64,000 bases of DNA, from positions 7,106 to 71,105 of IMG/VR virus record IMGVR_UViG_3300025012_000074; one strand, given 5' to 3'. Numbering within the stretch: the stretch's first letter is position 1; every line of letters starts with the position of its first letter. This document shows, piece by piece, positions 2,282 to 7,045 of this stretch. The position numbers and the translations under genes are program-made. The notes beneath the pieces were generated by a model. That model was not told the DNA's origin. It did no database searches and worked only from the letters and a program-made list of their open reading frames with translations. The DNA comes from a virus.

Positions 2282-2599
2282 TTATTCGAACCAATTTTCA
2301 AACATAGCCAATGCCGATCCGCGTTCATCGACCGTCATGGATTTGAATAAGTCGATCACCGGACGCTCGACGTCATCCAATTCGAAAGTTCCGCACCAGT
2401 CAACATCCGAATCCTTGATGTTGAAATCGTCCACAAGGATGTGCAGATTTCCGCCGGCTCCGTGCGCTTCATAAAGCGCCATCAAGAGGCCCTGCGCCAT
2501 CGTAACCTTTTCTGTGATTATCTTAGGCGACCCGTATCCACTCCAACATCCCTTGCACATTTTAATTGTCGTCCTTTCTTCCTCGCGCATTATCTCCAT
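2282..2599 (-). CDS. Hypothetical protein
   Basis: 105 aa ORF in tight operon context. Confidence 0.6.
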   Translation of the reverse strand: MEIMREEERTTIKMCKGCWSGYGSPKIITEKVTMAQGLLMALYEAHGAGGNLHILVDDFNIKDSDVDWCGTFELDDVERPVIDLFKSMTVDERGSALAMFENWFE

Positions 2600-2625
2600 T
2601 ATACAATATCGGGTTATTGTGTCAA
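2598..2625 (-). promoter_or_regulatory. Sigma70-like leftward promoter
   Basis: Minus strand TTGACA-N16-TATAAT. Confidence 0.6.
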
Positions 2626-3443
2626 CGTATTTTTAGGTTTCTAAAAATCAGAACCGGACGAATCCATTGTTTTGTGAACTTTTGCCACGCTTCTATTTTG
2701 AGTCCCGTCAACGGGCAGCGCATGAGCATCGCAAACGGAACGAACCCGGCATCCCACGTTTCACGTAACCGCGCTTCTGCTTTCTCGATCGTGTCGCCCT
2801 TGTATCCGAGAAAAACGTAGGCGGCCAGCCGGTGAGATGCTTTGGTAAATCCCGCGTTGAAAAGATTCGTCGCCGCGCATCGAAGTTTCTCAACGTCGCC
2901 CGGCCGATCGTTCGCGCAATAAATAATAGCCGGGTGGATCTTTCGCAACTCGGTCGCTATTTCCGGCGTAATCCGGCTGGCCTCGAGCCCCCCCGTGAAT
3001 CTTACTTTTCCATTCGGACGGCCGCGCAACATCGCAAACACGCTGCTGATGTGTTCGTGCGAACACTGCAATAAATTTGAATCCAGGACGTTCGAACCCG
3101 GAATAATCGGAAGTTCTCGAATCGCACCCTCGCGTTTGTGGACTTGGCAATACCAACATCGATTATTGCATCCTCGCGATGTGATTGTGTAACCGTCGGC
3201 GATGTATCGACCAGGAATGAAATTGCCGCCGCGATCACCGCACGCCGGACCGCCGATCGTAGTCGTAGCGACATCGCGCCAAGCACGCGCTAATTGTTCG
3301 GCGCGCGGAATATCCCATGTGAACGTCACGCTGACGTGGATCTCGTCCGCCTCGTCGAGCATGTCAGGTTCGACGTTCACGCGAACGAGTGAATCGGTAG
3401 GTGTCGCGGACGTCCGTCGCGGAAAAACTCGGATGATTTTCAT
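2622..3443 (-). CDS. Radical SAM protein
   Basis: TSRGCNNRCWYC = CxxxCxxC [4Fe-4S] motif, preceded by a B12-binding-like SVTFTW...IGGP segment. Confidence 0.85.
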   Translation of the reverse strand: MKIIRVFPRRTSATPTDSLVRVNVEPDMLDEADEIHVSVTFTWDIPRAEQLARAWRDVATTTIGGPACGDRGGNFIPGRYIADGYTITSRGCNNRCWYCQVHKREGAIRELPIIPGSNVLDSNLLQCSHEHISSVFAMLRGRPNGKVRFTGGLEASRITPEIATELRKIHPAIIYCANDRPGDVEKLRCAATNLFNAGFTKASHRLAAYVFLGYKGDTIEKAEARLRETWDAGFVPFAMLMRCPLTGLKIEAWQKFTKQWIRPVLIFRNLKIR

Positions 3444-5860
3444 AACATCGGTTCCGTCATTTCCTCATAAACTTTATCCCGCGACCGCGCGGACGCGCAG
3501 AGCACGCCGACCTTCGAGTCGCGGTAGTCGTAGACGCGGGCCGCTTCCTTGCCCGGCGCAGGACGTAGCACGCGGCCGAGATACTGCAACAGCCGCCCGT
3601 CGAACTTGATCGGTGTGGCAAGAAACAGCGTCGACAGCCCGGCGCAATCGAACCCCTCGCCGATCAACTGGCCGGTCGCGATCACAACGCGGGCCGCGCC
3701 GGACGCCGCCCGGCCGACGACCGCCAGCCGTTCGCGCTTGCCGAGCGCGCCGGTCAGCACGTCCGCCCAGATTCGGCGCTCGGCAAACAGGCCGGCCAGC
3801 GTATCGCAGTGTTCCTTCCGGTCGGACAGGATCAGGCAGATCCCCGCGCTGGCTTCCAGTTCCTCGCACACGTCGGCGACGATCAGTTTGTTTCGCTGTT
3901 CGTCTTCCGTCAGTTCGCCGATCATTCGCGCGTAATTCGGTTGCCAGCCGGTTTCGCGCCGGACGATTTCCGCCCGCAGGATGTCGCCGTTCGATTCCAA
4001 TTCGCCCTTGTCGATCGAATGAACCAGGTCGCCGAGGTGCCAGAAGATGAGTTTCGTTTGGCCGTCCCGCCGCCAGGGCGTCGCCGACAGACCGAGCGAA
4101 TACCAGGCGTCGAACTTGGAAACGGCTTCTGTGAACGTGCGGGAAGGGCAACGGTGGCAATTGTGAACCAGCACGCCGCCGGCAAAATAGTTACCGGTTT
4201 CAGTTTCTAAATTGAAGACAGGACCGACCGGACACACGTCCGAAGATCGTTCAGTATCTGGCGGTTTGTAAACCTTAACACTTTCCACCCTAACTTTTGT
4301 AAGTATTCCGTTTTCTTTGAATCCAGAATTCGTCGTTTCCCATTGTGGCTTTGTCCGTCTACTTCTATACCGATCATTAATTTTGTATTTGCTATGTCGA
4401 TTTTGTAGCACGTCGGCAAATTCTGCTCCAAAAGAAATTCTCTCCGGCTTCCTTTCTGAAGATGACTCGCCGTTTTTATCGGAACTTCCGTTCGCCATTT
4501 CAAGGCATCGGCTAAAGTCTTTTGAGCGATAGGAACCGGCCGGCCATTTCCGCCTCGATTCTTCGTGACGACAGATAATGTTCCGTTTTTCGTTTTCGTG
4601 TCCATCATCTTTGCGATCCATTTTGGATTTTTCATTGGGTTGTTTAATATCTTGTTGATGCGACCTTGCGTTTGATTGTATTTTGCTAGTGACATTCCTG
4701 AAACGACATGGCCACGACGCACTATTTCTTTCGTGCATTCTTCCGAGCACGTAGCACGCCCTGATTTTGCTTGCGTCAAGGAACTTCTCCAATGATTTCC
4801 GTCTTTGCATTCCACCTGTTTTCCGCATGCTCGGCACGGAACAATTACAATCTTCATTCTCGATTGCATTCTTGCGCGTCGGCATGGCTTGCAGAAAAGC
4901 CCGGTATCGTTTTTTCCCGTTCCGCATTCTTTGCAATTTTTTCTTATCATGAATCCTCCAAGCATAATCGCCAATTTTAATTTCGTTTGCCGGTTTATAT
5001 TCATTGTCGATATAAAACGGATGATTAGCAGTGCATATCACATGTTCGCCGTTTTCAAAATCAATACGATATAGATCGTTTGATTGATTATGAAATTCAT
5101 GTAATACTTTAGATTCGACAACTTGTTTACTATCATGATTATAGCCTAATACAATGTCGCCGGTCTTAATATCTTCAATATTTTTTTGTCCATCAACCGT
5201 ATCTATTTTCGTTTCGGAGGCGAAACACTCGTCAGTTATGACGAACCCCACCCGCTCACGCACGGCCGCCGCGTTCTTGTAAAGCGAATTGACGATCGCG
5301 ACGGTAATCCGTTCCCCGATCTTGTTTTTCCCGCCGCCGATGATCCCGACTTCGGGCGCGGGGATCGCCAGGAACCTGCCGATTCGTTCAATCCACTGGT
5401 TCAGCAATTCTTTATTATGGACGATCACGAGCGTCGGCTGGCGACGAGCCGCGACCGCAGCCAGGGCCATGACGGTCTTCCCCGATCCGGTAGCCGCGTT
5501 GAGCACGCCGAAGTCTTTCTTAAGCACGTCATCAACCGCCGCTCGCTGGATCGGCCGGACAGCGCCGGCGAACTGAAAATCAACCTCGGGAAGTTTGCGG
5601 CGACGATCATCCAGCGTGAATGCCAGACCGGCCGCTCGGGCCGTTCGGATCGCTTCGGCGATGAACCCGCGCGGAACGATCAGGCCGAATTCCGTTTCCG
5701 AGTATCCGACGATGTTCCGCGGCACGTTCCAGTTCGAGCGGCCGGCCTTTTCGTTGACCGTGAATTGCAGGTTAGGAAACGTCAGCGCGGCTTTCAGGCC
5801 GGCCAGGAAATCAGGCGGGGCGGATTCGATCGACAGGCAGGATGAGAGGCGGAAGATCAT
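3440..5860 (-). CDS. SF2 DExH-box helicase (ResIII-like) containing an intein
   Basis: Walker A ATGSGKT; DE|CH split by intein; motif III GLSATP; GEGFD; QYLGRVLR. Start moved to ATG 5860 (ATGA overlap with PLD stop). Confidence 0.93.
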   Translation of the reverse strand: MIFRLSSCLSIESAPPDFLAGLKAALTFPNLQFTVNEKAGRSNWNVPRNIVGYSETEFGLIVPRGFIAEAIRTARAAGLAFTLDDRRRKLPEVDFQFAGAVRPIQRAAVDDVLKKDFGVLNAATGSGKTVMALAAVAARRQPTLVIVHNKELLNQWIERIGRFLAIPAPEVGIIGGGKNKIGERITVAIVNSLYKNAAAVRERVGFVITDECFASETKIDTVDGQKNIEDIKTGDIVLGYNHDSKQVVESKVLHEFHNQSNDLYRIDFENGEHVICTANHPFYIDNEYKPANEIKIGDYAWRIHDKKKLQRMRNGKKRYRAFLQAMPTRKNAIENEDCNCSVPSMRKTGGMQRRKSLEKFLDASKIRACYVLGRMHERNSASWPCRFRNVTSKIQSNARSHQQDIKQPNEKSKMDRKDDGHENEKRNIICRHEESRRKWPAGSYRSKDFSRCLEMANGSSDKNGESSSERKPERISFGAEFADVLQNRHSKYKINDRYRSRRTKPQWETTNSGFKENGILTKVRVESVKVYKPPDTERSSDVCPVGPVFNLETETGNYFAGGVLVHNCHRCPSRTFTEAVSKFDAWYSLGLSATPWRRDGQTKLIFWHLGDLVHSIDKGELESNGDILRAEIVRRETGWQPNYARMIGELTEDEQRNKLIVADVCEELEASAGICLILSDRKEHCDTLAGLFAERRIWADVLTGALGKRERLAVVGRAASGAARVVIATGQLIGEGFDCAGLSTLFLATPIKFDGRLLQYLGRVLRPAPGKEAARVYDYRDSKVGVLCASARSRDKVYEEMTEPML
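4160..5227 (-). mobile_element. Intein (356 aa) inserted in the DECH motif
   Basis: Block A CFASETKIDTVDG, block B CTANHPF, blocks F/G VFNLETETGNYFAGGVLVHN followed by +1 Cys; AT-richer than flanks. Confidence 0.95.
4207..4950 (-). CDS. Vsr/DUF559-like putative homing endonuclease nested out-of-frame inside the intein
   Basis: IDIA...IGIEVDGQSH...DSKKTEYLQKLGWKVLRF; N-terminal CxxC motifs; GGAGG 4 nt before ATG 4950. Confidence 0.88.
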   Translation of the reverse strand: MIRKNCKECGTGKNDTGLFCKPCRRARMQSRMKIVIVPCRACGKQVECKDGNHWRSSLTQAKSGRATCSEECTKEIVRRGHVVSGMSLAKYNQTQGRINKILNNPMKNPKWIAKMMDTKTKNGTLSVVTKNRGGNGRPVPIAQKTLADALKWRTEVPIKTASHLQKGSRREFLLEQNLPTCYKIDIANTKLMIGIEVDGQSHNGKRRILDSKKTEYLQKLGWKVLRFTNRQILNDLRTCVRSVLSSI

Positions 5861-6588
5861 GACCCGATCCGCCACTCGGGCGCGCACCATTCCGATTCCC
5901 AATCCAGCGGTTCGGACAGGGAAATGATCTTTTGCCATTCGTCGAAGTAGCGTTTAGCAATCAGCGGATCGTGCATGACCACCGCGTTCTCAAACGAGTT
6001 TGTAGAATTTTTCGTGAAGTTGAATGAGCCGGTCCAGACCGAATTTGGCTTCATCCCATCATATCCATGTTGGGGTTTCCACGATTTTCCAAACACTAAA
6101 AATTTATTGTGCATTCTTGGGAACGCCGGAAGTTTATTATAATTATTGTTTCCAACGCATCGCATTGGATCTATTGTGTTATCTCCGCACATACTTAATT
6201 TTCTCACTAATTCACCCATAGCATAACGAGTAAAATTAGTTTTAATATTATTATATTTTGTCTTTAATTCGTCGCGATATCCGACAGACGCGCTCATATC
6301 CGGCCGCAAAAAGTCTTCTTTTTGAACGACGATTGATACGCCGAATTTCACGGACGCCAGCGCGTCAAGGATCTTCGGGCTCGTCAGCCAGGCAACGCAC
6401 CCGACGACAGACTCGGCCGCTTCGATGTGGCGGCATACCACGTCCTCAAGATTTTCAAAATAGAGTTCTACTTTTGGGTTGTATCGCGTCGAATTCCTAT
6501 CAACGTCGTTTGCGAATTCTGTATATTCCGATCCGAGAACTTTGTTTCCGATCCGTTTCAAATCCTTCGGCAAACTTTTGTCGTTCAT
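5857..6588 (-). CDS. Phospholipase D-family (Nuc-like, single HxK) protein
   Basis: MHNKFLVF and WTGSFNFT...FEN motifs; N-terminal GCVAWLT. Confidence 0.8.
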   Translation of the reverse strand: MNDKSLPKDLKRIGNKVLGSEYTEFANDVDRNSTRYNPKVELYFENLEDVVCRHIEAAESVVGCVAWLTSPKILDALASVKFGVSIVVQKEDFLRPDMSASVGYRDELKTKYNNIKTNFTRYAMGELVRKLSMCGDNTIDPMRCVGNNNYNKLPAFPRMHNKFLVFGKSWKPQHGYDGMKPNSVWTGSFNFTKNSTNSFENAVVMHDPLIAKRYFDEWQKIISLSEPLDWESEWCAPEWRIGS

Positions 6589-6610
6589 TTTTACGTCCCC
6601 ATTTCTTCGT

Positions 6611-7045
6611 CTAAAACTTTCGCAGTGAAGTTTCCGCACCGCCGAAACTTTCCGAAACCGTCTAAAACTTTTTCAAAAACTTTATAAATCAACTCAAAAC
6701 TTTTTCGAACCTTTTTGAATCGTCCGAAACTTTTTCAAAACTTTTGGAAAAGTTTTCAAAAGTTTTCGGAAACTTTGTCAAACTTTCTACTTCCAGTTGA
6801 CAACCGATGTTGATAAAGGGGGTTACGTCGGTTACGTCGCGTGGGTCCCTTACACTTTTCCCAGTTTCGTCGAAAGCCCCTATAGATAGAAAATTAATGT
6901 TCTTTCTTTCTTTCTTATATAAGGAGCGCGTGCGCGCGCGCGCACACACACGCGCAGGAGGAACGTGTAGGCTACCCACGCGACGTAACCGACGAAACCT
7001 ATTGTATGTAATTTATACATTACTAAATCCGTTTCAAAAGTTTCG
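6611..7045. repeat. Putative replication origin: AAACTTT iterons, 26-bp inverted repeat, AT-rich and alternating purine/pyrimidine tracts
   Basis: About a dozen AAACTTT/AAAGTTT copies at 6611-6790; inverted repeat 6821-6846 / 6974-6999 (25/26 match); directly downstream of the DUF3987 gene. Confidence 0.7.

What the first reader, a model, noticed from the sequence alone, without database searches (positions are those of the whole stretch)
4160..5227. Intein with its endonuclease overprinted in a different reading frame
Seen: a contiguous 356-aa intein splits the helicase DE|CH motif. Between blocks B and F the intein frame reads as motif-less basic sequence yet has no stop for about 250 codons of AT-rich DNA. 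The +1 frame encodes a complete 247-aa Zn-finger + Vsr/DUF559 nuclease, with GGAGG-ATTC-ATG hidden in the intein codons for W-R-I-H-D, and its end overlaps block F. Established: intein endonucleases are normally in-frame, and free-standing Vsr-like homing endonucleases are known between split-intein halves in phages. Inference: this is a dual-coded arrangement between those two states, letting the nuclease be translated independently of the host protein and of splicing.
Basis: partly seen in the sequence, partly recalled or inferred. Interest (0 to 1): 0.85.

Follow-up and report, generated by a model that had tools for sequence, protein, structure and literature searches.

The report
Intein with out-of-frame homing nuclease
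A phage helicase gene carries a self-splicing protein insert (intein) whose middle part also encodes, one base out of step, a separate DNA-cutting enzyme; this two-in-one layout recurs in about a hundred other phages and bacteria, although such layouts have been described as rare.

Summary
Window 4160..5227 (minus strand) is a 356-aa class-1 intein that splits motif II (DE|CH) of a phage SF2 helicase (ORF 3440..5938). The +1 frame holds a 247-aa ORF (4207..4950) after GGAGG-ATTC-ATG. It encodes two zinc ribbons and a DUF559/Vsr-type nuclease.

The intein frame has 0 stops where synonymous permutation expects 10.5 (0 of 20,000 permutations reach 0). It is not an assembly error: four independent run assemblies show no indel.

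The layout is also not unique. Of 126 loci with a nuclease match of at least 100 aa, 120 have an open frame across it. 117 carry both splicing domains (92 non-redundant). The nuclease is always at +1, with 0 stops seen against about 788 expected. Only the nuclease frame is conserved (44% against 24% identity). Its GWxVLRF core shares nucleotides with an intein C-lobe strand.

Cultured phages CP-T1, MR14 and phi673 carry the same layout, with the nuclease unannotated.

The kind is already in print: Gogarten-lab preprints of 2025 and 2026, which cite Gorbalenya 1998. This same-strand Vsr-like family at the Walker-B site, and its abundance, were not found in the searched literature. Splicing, independent translation and cleavage remain inferred.

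The parts
3440..5938 (-). Helicase precursor ORF (832 aa from the first ATG). The likely true start is Met27 at 5860, which gives an 806-aa precursor and a 450-aa spliced SF2 helicase.
   Evidence: Pfam ResIII 5.3e-20, DEAD, Helicase_C. PHROG 16 'DNA helicase' 2.7e-55. Met27 aligns with Met1 of the intein-free homolog P0020.
5228..5938 (-). N-extein, ending in motif II ...VITDE.
   Evidence: The homolog P0020 reads VVDECHRTPSRTF without interruption.
4160..5227 (-). Class-1 intein, 356 aa: Cys1 ... His-Asn, followed by Cys+1.
   Evidence: PT-HINT 2.2e-12, Intein_splicing 1e-09, both above their cutoffs. In the AlphaFold model, residues 1-90 and about 311-320 and 341-356 have pLDDT 95-98.
4940..5227 (-). 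N-terminal splicing lobe (intein residues 1-96, with blocks A and B, including T-A-N-H).
   Evidence: HMM built from 118 relatives, E 6e-29. pLDDT 95-98.
4304..4939 (-). Frame-0 linker of the intein. It is open and basic, has no family match, and is predicted disordered.
   Evidence: 0 Pfam and 0 PHROG families. pLDDT 41-56 over residues about 130-300. Identity between relatives equals that of the non-coding frame. pI 10.2.
4160..4303 (-). C-terminal splicing lobe (intein residues 309-356, blocks F and G, ending VLVHN).
   Evidence: HMM E 1e-16. Strands 309-320 and 335-355 in the model.
4955..4959 (-). Shine-Dalgarno-like GGAGG, 4 nt upstream of the nuclease ATG, inside intein codons W-R.
   Evidence: Family-wide enrichment is 42 of 88 against a 15.1% control, binomial p 5.7e-13.
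4207..4950 (-). Nested +1-frame ORF of 247 aa plus a TAA stop: the homing-endonuclease candidate.
   Evidence: The N-terminus MIRKNCKECG aligns with the starts of homologs. Model mean pLDDT is 86.3.
4738..4935 (-). Two Cys4 zinc ribbons of the nuclease (residues 6-23 and 39-71), presumed to bind DNA.
   Evidence: CxxC pairs conserved in A1. Weak profile matches to a MYM zinc finger (0.0095) and to L24e. Binding to DNA is inferred.
4210..4413 (-). DUF559/Vsr-type (EDxHD-like) catalytic domain of the nuclease (residues about 180-247).
   Evidence: PF04480 2.8e-11. Profile against PDB: 3hrl 1.5e-10, I-Bth0305I 3r3p 0.0064. Foldseek 3hrl and 3r3p at E 0.02, probability 1.00. D185, E196, D198, H202, D210 and K213 are invariant in all 15 sequences.
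4270..4291 (-). Doubly constrained junction. The same bases encode nuclease G-W-K-V-L-R-F (+1 frame) and the intein C-lobe strand R-V-E-S-V-K-V (frame 0).
   Evidence: The register holds in relatives: 89 of 92 have GWx[VI], and the intein frame there reads RV in 70, GV in 9 and RL in 7.
3440..4159 (-). C-extein, starting CHRCPSRTF...
   Evidence: 62% identical to P0020. Helicase_C 1.4e-06.

Best explanation
This is a mobile class-1 intein at motif II (Walker B, DE|CH) of a phage SF2 helicase. Its homing endonuclease is a separate gene overprinted in the +1 frame of the intein's own coding sequence.

Proposed mechanism:

1. Ribosomes that read the helicase frame go straight through the nuclease gene. 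That stretch becomes a 215-aa disordered, basic linker between the two HINT lobes.
2. The lobes fold, the intein excises itself, and a helicase of about 450 aa is ligated (inferred).
3. Other ribosomes start at an internal GGAGG-N4-ATG. They make a 247-aa protein with two zinc ribbons and a Vsr/DUF559 (EDxHD-like) nuclease domain.
4. That protein is expected to cut intein-free DE|CH alleles, so that repair copies the whole element in (inferred).

The helicase frame is kept open at no cost to the nuclease protein. Every stop codon starts with T, and in this register that T is the nuclease's third codon base, where T-to-C is always synonymous.

At the 3' end, the nuclease core (GWKVLRF) and an intein C-lobe strand (RVESVKV) are written in the same bases. 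Nuclease and intein are therefore physically interlocked.

Shown here: the anatomy; selection against stops; protein-level conservation of the nuclease frame only; conservation of the layout in about 117 loci; and absence of the intein from the nearest helicase homologs.

Inferred: splicing, internal initiation, cleavage specificity and homing.
For: Anatomy and chance
- Coordinates, frames and motifs are confirmed.
- 0 stops against 10.5 expected; 0 of 20,000 synonymous permutations are open.

Not an error
- Logan contigs of 4 runs from 3 studies show 0 other letters and 0 gaps over 4000..5400 wherever they cover it. X1 and X3 span the whole stretch but may be the source. X7 covers 4000..5250 in three contigs.

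Conserved layout
- 126 loci, including the window, have a nuclease match of at least 100 aa. In 120 of them an ORF in the frame one base upstream spans the match.
- A frame-agnostic tblastn found 86 N-lobe and 66 C-lobe hits. All are on the same strand, within 1.5 kb, with the nuclease at offset +1, never 0 or 2.
- 117 loci have both lobes, and they form 92 clusters at 90% nt identity.
- Across the 92 representatives there are 0 stops in the intein frame against 787.7 expected.

Mechanism of stop avoidance
- T at nuclease codon position 3 before AA/AG/GA occurs in 0 of 5022 cases, against 3212 of 11919 elsewhere. C rises from 15.8% to 23.4%.
- The invariant Gln275 of the linker is the CAA forced by nuclease Tyr(TAC)-Lys.

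Which frame is selected
- Identity is 0.436 (nuclease frame), 0.236 (intein frame) and 0.235 (third frame). The nuclease frame is higher in 3957 of 4005 pairs.
- The nuclease model has pLDDT 86.3. The intein-frame linker has pLDDT 41-56, between lobes at 95-98.

Nuclease identity
- PF04480 scores above its cutoff. The profile hits 3hrl at 1.5e-10 and I-Bth0305I at 0.0064. The top Foldseek hits are 3hrl and 3r3p.

Own start
- ATG in 67, GTG in 14 and TTG in 7 of 88 representatives, mostly 1-15 codons before the first CxxC.
- A Shine-Dalgarno-like motif is present in 42 of 88, against 15.1% at other codons of the same ORFs.

Mobility
- The 119 best C-extein homologs other than the window's own product are 457-498 aa and have no HINT domain.
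- P0020 reads DECH without interruption.
- Intein GC is about 0.41, against about 0.61 for the host gene.
- Hosts of relatives are ResIII helicases (58 of 90), AAA+/RuvB-N/clamp-loader-like (21) and SNF2 (9).
- 76 of 92 representatives sit at DE|CH.

Cultured examples
- CP-T1 gp10, MR14 gp44 and phi673 gp43 all have offset +1 and 0 internal stops.
Against: - No experiment or expression data bear on splicing, on translation of the nested ORF, or on cleavage.
- Only 48% of representatives have a Shine-Dalgarno-like motif at the presumed start. That start was chosen by a rule (nearest start upstream of the first CxxC), not observed.
- Structural similarity to solved nucleases is weak by Foldseek E-value (0.02; none at or below 0.001). 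The sequence-profile match to the characterised homing enzyme I-Bth0305I is marginal (0.0064).
- Whether a linker of more than 200 residues is compatible with efficient splicing is unknown.
- Pairwise identity of the nuclease correlates with the non-overlapping N-lobe only modestly (Spearman 0.33). That is no better than with the exteins (0.41-0.47). This measure does not by itself show that nuclease and intein travel as one unit.
- The identity comparison between frames used an alignment built on the nuclease frame, which favours that frame. The third frame serves as the control.
- The loci were found with the nuclease as bait. Relatives of the intein that lack the nuclease, or carry another one, would not have been seen.
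Confidence: 0.85

Rival explanations
1. Artefact. Two compensating indel errors in the assembly put an ordinary in-frame intein endonuclease out of frame.
For: None was found. It is conceivable a priori for a metagenome assembly at about 10x depth.
Against: Contigs assembled independently from 4 runs agree, with 0 gaps. 117 loci from unrelated assemblies, and three cultured phage genomes, have the same +1 offset. The nuclease has its own start and its own stop. The intein frame shows specific avoidance of stops.
Confidence: 0.01
2. The nuclease is not made by internal initiation. Ribosomes translating the helicase would shift +1 near the end of the N-lobe and produce an N-extein/N-lobe/nuclease fusion that ends at the nuclease stop.
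For: 46 of 88 representatives lack a Shine-Dalgarno-like motif at the presumed start. The nuclease open span extends upstream of the presumed start in many loci.
Against: A start codon sits 1-15 codons before the first zinc ribbon in most of the 88 representatives, and Shine-Dalgarno-like motifs are three-fold enriched there. Free-standing homologs (L087, L115, L117) and called proteins of 151-281 aa begin at the same point. I did not search for a conserved slippery site.
Confidence: 0.06
3. The nested nuclease no longer works in homing. It is either a decaying passenger, or it has been recruited for another role (for example phage competition or defence), while the intein is simply inherited.
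For: The window holds a single copy. The nuclease correlates with the extein as well as it does with the N-lobe, which is compatible with much vertical descent.
Against: Catalytic-type residues are invariant in all 15 sequences. The nuclease frame is conserved in 3957 of 4005 pairs. None of the 92 representatives has a stop inside the matched nuclease region, by construction of the open spans. The nearest helicase homologs lack the intein. The intein's GC differs from its host gene. 15 pairs have nucleases at least 60% identical inside exteins less than 30% identical.
Confidence: 0.1
4. The frame-0 reading of the nuclease region is itself a functional domain, for example a basic nucleic-acid-binding or splicing-regulating segment. 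Both products of the middle region would then be selected.
For: The linker is basic in the window (pI 10.2). 51 of 91 linkers have pI above 9. A helix at intein residues 141-165 is predicted, at low confidence.
Against: Its identity between relatives equals that of the frame that is not read at all (0.236 against 0.235). It has 0 Pfam and 0 PHROG matches and pLDDT 41-56. Linker length varies from 70 to 354 aa. The basic composition follows from reading A-rich Lys/Glu/Arg codons one base early (inference).
Confidence: 0.07

Closest known systems
Non-canonical inteins with a homing endonuclease in a separate reading frame. Sources: Gosselin, Arsenault and Gogarten, bioRxiv 10.1101/2025.01.02.630785 (abstract, sections 8 and 15, and passages read); Phillips, DeSimone and Gogarten, bioRxiv 10.64898/2026.09.14.751524 (abstract, sections 11 and 17 read); both cite Gorbalenya 1998, which I did not see.
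   Same: A contiguous intein whose in-frame middle is unstructured and uninterrupted, while a folded endonuclease is read from another frame. The evidence type is the same: a low-confidence in-frame model against a confident out-of-frame model, Shine-Dalgarno motifs, and low dN/dS in the endonuclease frame. The proposed origin is the same: a free-standing endonuclease gene invading a mini-intein.
   Different: The published same-strand cases are an endonuclease VII-like enzyme in 'frame 3' (actinophage terminase, capsid and other genes) and a LAGLIDADG enzyme in the '+2ORF' of cyanobacterial dnaX. The published Vsr-like case in a contiguous intein is on the antisense strand. Here the enzyme is a zinc-ribbon plus Vsr/DUF559 nuclease, on the same strand at +1, at the Walker-B site of helicases, SNF2 and AAA+ proteins. 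Those authors call the architecture rare and say the second ORF typically lies outside the splicing domain. Here there are 92 non-redundant cases, and the nuclease core overlaps the C-lobe. Their supplementary tables could not be opened and may list further cases.
Fractured genes: split inteins with a free-standing Vsr-like endonuclease gene between the halves (Dassa et al. 2009, PMC2677866; abstract and passages read).
   Same: A Vsr-related putative homing endonuclease with its own translation signals sits between the N and C parts of an intein, in phage DNA-metabolism genes. The 3' end of the endonuclease gene overlaps the downstream intein-C coding region (6-69 bp in 15 of their loci).
   Different: In fractured genes the host frame is broken: the N part ends in a stop and the C part has a new start, and the protein is joined by trans-splicing. 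Here the host frame has no stop in the window or in any of the 92 representatives, so the intein is contiguous and would cis-splice.
I-Bth0305I / EDxHD homing endonuclease family (Taylor et al. 2011, PMC3239194; search listing and abstract only) and the DUF559 protein NGO0050 (PDB 3hrl).
   Same: The catalytic-domain fold and motif pattern (D...ExD...H...D..K). Profile hits to 3hrl at 1.5e-10 and to 3r3p at 0.0064. These are the top Foldseek hits, with TM 0.60-0.64 over the target.
   Different: I-Bth0305I is encoded in a group I intron of a phage recA gene. The N-terminal half here (two zinc ribbons plus a conserved NPM...RGGNG segment) has no counterpart among the solved structures found. 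Activity is untested.
[quoted passage not shown] 2025, PMC11855218; abstract read).
   Same: An insertion that is stop-free in the host gene's frame while a nuclease is read from another frame on the same strand, with its own start and stop close to the ends of the insertion.
   Different: ShiLan has no splicing domains and stays in the host protein as a loop. Here canonical HINT lobes flank the overlap, so the insert should be removed.

Membership tests
Class-1 intein (HINT splicing domain) | Cys/Ser at position 1; block B TxxH; C-terminal His-Asn; Cys/Ser/Thr at +1. | tested here: met
   Cys1, T-A-N-H (residues 66-69), His355-Asn356 and Cys+1. Cys1 is present in 92 of 92 relatives, and HN or SN followed by C or S in all of them.
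Class-1 intein (HINT splicing domain) | Sequence-profile membership of HINT/intein families. | tested here: met
   PT-HINT 47.8 bits (cutoff 27.7), Intein_splicing 38.8 (cutoff 35.8) and Hint 30.5 (cutoff 29.7) on the 356-aa segment.
Class-1 intein (HINT splicing domain) | Precise in-frame insertion in a conserved site of a host protein that also exists without it. | tested here: met
   P0020 reads VVDECHRTPSRTF across the site. 119 of the 120 listed homologs lack HINT domains.
Class-1 intein (HINT splicing domain) | Protein splicing activity. | not testable with these tools
   Needs an expression and splicing assay.
Vsr-like / DUF559 / EDxHD homing endonucleases | DUF559 profile match and the conserved acidic/His/Lys catalytic pattern. 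| tested here: met
   PF04480 43.7 bits (cutoff 20.6). D185, E196, D198, H202, D210 and K213 are invariant in 15 of 15 sequences. 3hrl at 1.5e-10.
Vsr-like / DUF559 / EDxHD homing endonucleases | Specific relationship to the characterised homing enzyme I-Bth0305I. | tested here: inconclusive
   Profile E 0.0064 over 56 residues. Foldseek E 0.02, probability 1.00, TM 0.60 over the target.
Vsr-like / DUF559 / EDxHD homing endonucleases | Site-specific cleavage of the element-free allele. | not testable with these tools
   Needs a cleavage assay on DE|CH allele DNA.
Non-canonical inteins with an out-of-frame endonuclease | An endonuclease ORF in a frame other than the intein's, inside the intein, while the intein/extein frame stays uninterrupted. 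| tested here: met
   Offset +1, with 0 stops in frame 0. The same holds in 117 loci.
Fractured gene / split intein with a free-standing endonuclease gene | The host frame ends in a stop after the N-intein part and restarts before the C-intein part. | tested here: not met
   No stop in frame 0 over the 356 intein codons. None in the 92 representatives.
Canonical endonuclease-containing intein | The endonuclease domain is in frame between blocks B and F. | tested here: not met
   The in-frame middle has 0 family matches and a low-confidence fold. No protein of 434-2000 aa contains the nuclease in frame, which is weak evidence.

The most novel reading that the evidence does not exclude
Out-of-frame endonuclease inteins are not rarities. 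They would be a large, old and systematically unannotated class. On this reading, one lineage specialised on the Walker-B codons (DE|xH) shared by SF2 helicases, SNF2 and AAA+/clamp-loader ATPases, and hops between these gene families. It stays stable because the nuclease core and the intein C-lobe are written in the same nucleotides, so neither can be lost or decay without destroying the other. That interlock would escape the usual homing cycle in which the endonuclease decays into a mini-intein. The +1 register would be favoured because it is the only one in which the host frame can be kept open by synonymous changes alone.
Probability: 0.5. Interest if true: 0.72.

Novelty: new variant of a known kind. 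Interest (0 to 1): 0.6.

Why it matters
- It gives a clean, large natural data set of same-strand overlapping genes: 92 independent sequences. One frame is selected for a folded enzyme. The other is selected only for being open, except for about 30 codons where both encode structure. This is useful for testing overlapping-gene codon models and gene finders.
- It shows that the 'rare' non-canonical intein architecture of recent preprints includes an abundant family. That family occurs in cultured, tractable phages (C. glutamicum phage phi673, Pseudomonas phage MR14), so splicing, internal initiation and homing can be tested directly.
- It supplies the contiguous counterpart of the fractured-gene arrangement of Dassa et al. 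It also gives a concrete reason, interlocked coding, why an endonuclease and an intein might persist together.
- For annotation, the nuclease ORF is missing from the three GenBank phage records inspected. The long 'disordered insert' in these helicases is a translated gene read out of register.
- The Walker-B target suggests how one mobile element can move among unrelated ATPase genes.

Tried and rejected
- RNA evidence. The look-up of sequencing runs listed no RNA holder, so nothing can be said about expression.
- Coverage gaps. Parts of the stretch had no contig cover in runs X7 and X9. These gaps carry no meaning.
- Fused forms. A search for proteins of 434-2000 aa containing the nuclease found none at E <= 0.001 among 1432 candidates. 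The tool itself rates this as weak evidence.
- Foldseek against PDB gave no match at E <= 0.001. I rely on the profile search and on Pfam instead.
- Mini-intein or other-endonuclease alleles. I tried to look for them at the same site using an alignment of 71 N-lobes. The search for related loci answered that no stretch was conserved enough. I did not pursue it, so the ancestral state is not addressed.
- Co-inheritance test. All Mantel tests were significant (0 of 500 permutations), but the correlations were modest. Nuclease-to-N-lobe (0.33) was not higher than nuclease-to-extein (0.41-0.47), so I do not use it as support.
- First Shine-Dalgarno count. 58 of 92 had no control and allowed several candidate starts per ORF. 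It was replaced by the controlled count.
- Timing and script errors. Its repeat, printed the identity results and then stopped on a formatting error, so the planned count of differences by codon position was never obtained.
- Rows dropped.
  - L083 was dropped from the 118 loci with both lobes, because its N-lobe is cut by the contig end, leaving 117.
  - L124 and L136 were left out of alignment A2.
  - Loci with nuclease matches under 100 aa were left out of the 126. These are L127-L158 (except L139, kept at 156 aa) plus L124 and L136, which were short for other reasons. L127-L158 are mostly generic DUF559 C-terminal hits in Brevundimonas, Rhizobium and others.
  - One search used 88 of 92 representatives, namely those with a CxxC and an upstream start.
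  - One search used 89 of 92.
They may list cases like this one.
- Literature claim. The statement that a same-strand Vsr-like nested endonuclease in a contiguous intein was not found rests on the searches, and on the passages read. Gorbalenya 1998 is known to me only through the preprints' citations.
- Complex prediction, the protein-atlas search, the search of protein representatives and the metagenome scan were not used.

Full report
**What is there**

The minus strand of window 3440..5938 is one open reading frame of 832 codons. Its ends are an SF2 helicase: Pfam ResIII 5.3e-20, DEAD, Helicase_C, and PHROG 16 'DNA helicase' 2.7e-55.

Between ...VITDE and CHRCP... lies a 356-residue insert, window 4160..5227. 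It begins with Cys and ends with His-Asn followed by Cys. It scores above the curated cut-offs of the PT-HINT, Intein_splicing and Hint families.

An intein-free homolog, P0020 (459 aa), aligns on both sides and reads VVDECHRTPSRTF straight across the site.

**The two frames**

- Frame 0 has no stop over the 356 intein codons.
- Frame +1 has an open span holding a 265-aa ORF (4207..5004).
- Frame +2 has 39 stops, and the three reverse frames have 11-17.

The ORF that matches homologs starts at ATG 4950..4948. It is preceded by ATTC and GGAGG (4955..4959), inside the intein codons for A-W-R-I-H-D. It gives 247 aa and ends at TAA 4209..4207, 47 nt before the intein's last base, inside the codons for N-L-E of the block-F region.

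The +1 product matches DUF559 (PF04480, 2.8e-11, above cutoff). The frame-0 reading of the same DNA matches no Pfam and no PHROG family.

The insert has GC 0.32-0.49, inside a gene of GC 0.57-0.71.

**Is the open intein frame more than chance?**

I permuted synonymous codons within the 247-codon ORF. This keeps the protein and its codon usage. The intein frame then carries a mean of 10.5 stops (sd 2.3, minimum 2), and none of 20,000 permutations is open. Shuffling codon order gives a mean of 12.8 and again none of 20,000. The third frame behaves as expected: 21 stops seen, 18.7 expected.

**Is it an assembly error?**

Logan contigs of four public runs from three studies were laid on 4000..5400.

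- Two runs span the whole stretch with no differing letter and no gap. These may be the source of the record.
- Run X7, from another sample, covers 4000..5250 in three contigs without a difference.
- Run X9 covers four parts without a difference.

The stronger argument is the set of relatives described next.

**Relatives**

The nuclease has called homologs of 151-281 aa. There are 15 proteins at E <= 1e-3, including the window's own, and all carry PF04480. D185, E196, D198, H202, D210, K213 and a GGNG motif are invariant.

Using that alignment, I fetched 80 loci from viral contigs (322 confirmed relatives, best 80 kept) and 78 from one-genome-per-species contigs.

A frame-agnostic tblastn with the window's N-lobe (100 aa) and C-lobe (45 aa) found 86 and 66 hits. 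Every one is on the nuclease's strand, within 1.5 kb, and in the frame that puts the nuclease at +1. None is at 0 or +2.

Of 126 loci with a nuclease match of at least 100 aa (the window included), 120 have an ORF in that frame spanning the whole match. The six exceptions are:

- L057, which is cut by its contig end;
- L139, a distant hit;
- L010, L087, L115 and L117, where the nuclease stands alone. In L087 it overlaps the start of a helicase-like gene. In L010 a weak C-lobe remnant lies in another frame.

HMMs built from the hits place both lobes in 118 loci, or 117 after dropping one cut by a contig end. These fall into 92 clusters at 90% nucleotide identity, 55 viral, 36 genomic and the window.

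All 92 begin with Cys. 76 sit at DE|CH. The others sit after DExH of SNF2-like proteins or before Ser.

The N-extein flanks match ResIII in 58 of 90, DEAD in 43, AAA/RuvB_N in 21, DNA_pol3_delta2 in 16 and SNF2 in 9.

The record titles span many phyla, a Woesearchaeota bin included.

In GenBank phages, 40 records carry the nuclease at 80% coverage or more: 37 Vibrio, 2 Corynebacterium and 1 Pseudomonas. In CP-T1 gp10, MR14 gp44 and phi673 gp43, the annotated helicase has no internal stop, the nuclease is at +1, and no nuclease CDS is annotated.

**Selection in the family**

- Stops. Across the 92 representatives the intein frame has 0 stops in the overlap, where synonymous permutation expects 787.7 in total.
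- How the stops are avoided. When the next nuclease codon begins AA, AG or GA, the preceding codon ends in T in 0 of 5022 cases, against 3212 of 11919 otherwise. C rises from 15.8% to 23.4%. NNT and NNC are always synonymous, so the host frame is kept open without touching the nuclease protein. The invariant Gln275 of the linker is the CAA produced by the invariant nuclease Tyr-Lys written TAC-AAR.
- Which frame is conserved. Over 4005 pairs, amino-acid identity is 0.436 in the nuclease frame, 0.236 in the intein frame and 0.235 in the unread third frame. The nuclease frame is higher in 3957 pairs. The alignment was made on the nuclease frame, so the fair control is the third frame, which the intein frame equals.
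- Structure prediction agrees. The nuclease model has mean pLDDT 86.3. The intein model has 95-98 over residues 1-90 and in the C-lobe strands, but 41-56 over residues about 130-300.
- The linker. It is 70-354 aa long in relatives and often basic: pI 10.2 here, and above 9 in 51 of 91.

**The interlocked end**

In 89 of 92 representatives the nuclease stop lies 8-74 nt before the intein's end. In three, the open span runs past it.

In the window, the bases 4270..4291 read G-W-K-V-L-R-F in the nuclease frame and R-V-E-S-V-K-V in the intein frame. The first is the conserved core strand of DUF559. The second is the first strand of the C-lobe.

The register is conserved. 89 of 92 have GWx[VI], and the intein frame there reads RV in 70, GV in 9 and RL in 7, mostly 44-47 or 53 residues from the intein end. 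This argues for one ancestral fusion.

It also means that, over about 30 codons, both frames encode structure. In runs X7 and X9, other contigs match only 4255..4290, with three differences. So this junction is conserved at the DNA level in another element of the same communities.

**What the nuclease is**

The profile of the 15 homologs hits the DUF559 structure 3hrl (1.5e-10) and the homing endonuclease I-Bth0305I (3r3p, 0.0064). It also hits a MYM zinc finger (0.0095) and, weakly, phage P1 Ref (0.0057) in the middle segment.

Foldseek ranks 3hrl and 3r3p first (E 0.02, probability 1.00, TM 0.60-0.64 over the target), then TnsA and Vsr. No hit is at or below 0.001.

It is therefore a DUF559/Vsr-type enzyme. 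It is plausibly of the EDxHD homing family, with an N-terminal half (two Cys4 ribbons and an NPM...RGGNG segment) of unknown structure class.

**Own translation signals**

I took the nearest start upstream of the first CxxC in 88 representatives. The codon is ATG in 67, GTG in 14 and TTG in 7, mostly 1-15 codons before the ribbon. A GGAG/GAGG/AGGA motif lies 4-17 nt upstream in 42 (48%), against 15.1% at the other codons of the same ORFs (binomial p 5.7e-13). This supports internal initiation but does not prove it.

**Mobility**

- The 119 best homologs of the window's C-extein, other than its own product, are 457-498 aa and have no HINT domain. The intein is therefore absent from the nearest alleles.
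- Its composition differs from the host gene.
- Fifteen pairs of loci have nucleases at least 60% identical inside exteins less than 30% identical.
- By contrast, the overall correlation between nuclease and N-lobe identity is only 0.33, no higher than with the exteins. I do not count this as support.

**Context**

The window is part of a 71,105-base virus record (CheckV completeness 55%) with one copy of the element. It encodes terminase, portal, protease, tape measure, a DUF3987/DnaB-N protein, a methyltransferase and a radical SAM protein.

**Comparison with what is known**

The kind is in print.

- Gosselin et al. (bioRxiv 10.1101/2025.01.02.630785; sections 8 and 15 read) describe actinophage inteins with antisense LAGLIDADG, antisense Vsr-like and same-strand 'frame 3' endonuclease VII-like genes. 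They propose invasion of inteins by free-standing endonuclease genes.
- Phillips et al. (bioRxiv 10.64898/2026.09.14.751524; sections 11 and 17 read) show a LAGLIDADG gene in the '+2ORF' of the cyanobacterial dnaX intein. Their arguments are the same as mine, and they call it a rarity.
- Both preprints credit Gorbalenya 1998.
- Dassa et al. 2009 (PMC2677866) found Vsr-like genes free-standing between split-intein halves, overlapping the downstream half by 6-69 bp.
- The ShiLan element (PMC11855218, abstract read) is an out-of-frame HNH gene without splicing domains.

Five searches found no description of a same-strand Vsr/DUF559 gene nested in a contiguous intein, nor of this helicase-site family. 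The supplements of the preprints could not be opened.

**Verdict**

The element is best filed as a new variant of a known kind, for five reasons:

- a different nuclease family and orientation from the published cases;
- a Walker-B target shared by several ATPase families;
- a structured overlap with the C-lobe;
- about a hundred independent examples, against the published view of rarity;
- examples in cultured phages, with the nuclease unannotated in the three records inspected.

What remains untested is everything biochemical: splicing through a 215-residue linker, internal initiation, and the cleavage site.

Noticed in passing
window 5857..6639 (-) and 5857..5860: A 260-aa PLD-like nuclease ORF (PF13091, 5.6e-07) sits in an AT-rich island (GC 0.34-0.46) just upstream of the helicase. 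Its TGA overlaps an ATG (ATGA) that is Met27 of the helicase ORF, and Met27 aligns with Met1 of the intein-free homolog P0020. The helicase therefore probably starts at 5860. The PLD-like gene may be another acquired nuclease cassette.
   Followed up: partly
window 2500..2700, 6000..6300 and 6500..6900: Further AT-rich islands (GC 0.34-0.39) lie in an otherwise 55-70% GC replication module. They suggest more foreign insertions around the helicase.
   Followed up: no
L087:3896-5961: A free-standing homolog of the nuclease (204-codon open span) overlaps by 37 nt the start of a helicase-like ORF. There are no splicing lobes, and the frame one base upstream has 14 stops. This is a stand-alone relative sitting next to the same kind of target gene.
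   Followed up: partly
L010:3338-3979: A free-standing homolog with 9 stops in the would-be intein frame. A weak remnant of the C-lobe (HMM positions 2-21, E 9e-4) lies in another frame at 3844-3942. It may be a decayed or rearranged copy.
   Followed up: partly
window 4255..4290: In runs X7 and X9, separate contigs of other organisms match only these 36 bases, with 3 differences. This is the doubly coded GWKVLRF/RVESVKV junction, so it is conserved at the DNA level between different elements in the same communities.
   Followed up: no
L159 (Vibrio phage CP-T1 gp10), L160 (Pseudomonas phage MR14 gp44), L162 (Corynebacterium phage phi673 gp43): These GenBank phage helicases of 993, 857 and 836 aa contain the same intein with the +1 nuclease ORF. 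Only the helicase CDS is annotated. In about 30 Vibrio lentus phage records the host gene is labelled 'coil containing protein'.
   Followed up: yes
nuclease residues about 84-167 (window about 4450..4700): The conserved middle segment (NPM...RGGNG) gives a weak profile match to the phage P1 recombination enhancement function protein Ref (3plw, E 0.0057). Its meaning is unknown.
   Followed up: no
L006, L007, L012, L063, L089, L094 and others: In about 21 of 90 relatives the host is an AAA+/RuvB-N/clamp-loader-like ATPase (junction ...DE|CHMLS-like). In 9 it is an SNF2 protein (DEGH|C...KN). Fifteen pairs have nucleases at least 60% identical inside exteins less than 30% identical. This is apparent switching of host gene family at the Walker-B site.
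   Followed up: partly
alignment A3 (N-extein flanks): Two of the 90 N-extein flanks match LAGLIDADG_3 (best 1.8e-06). Some of these host genes may therefore carry a second, conventional intein or endonuclease upstream.
   Followed up: no
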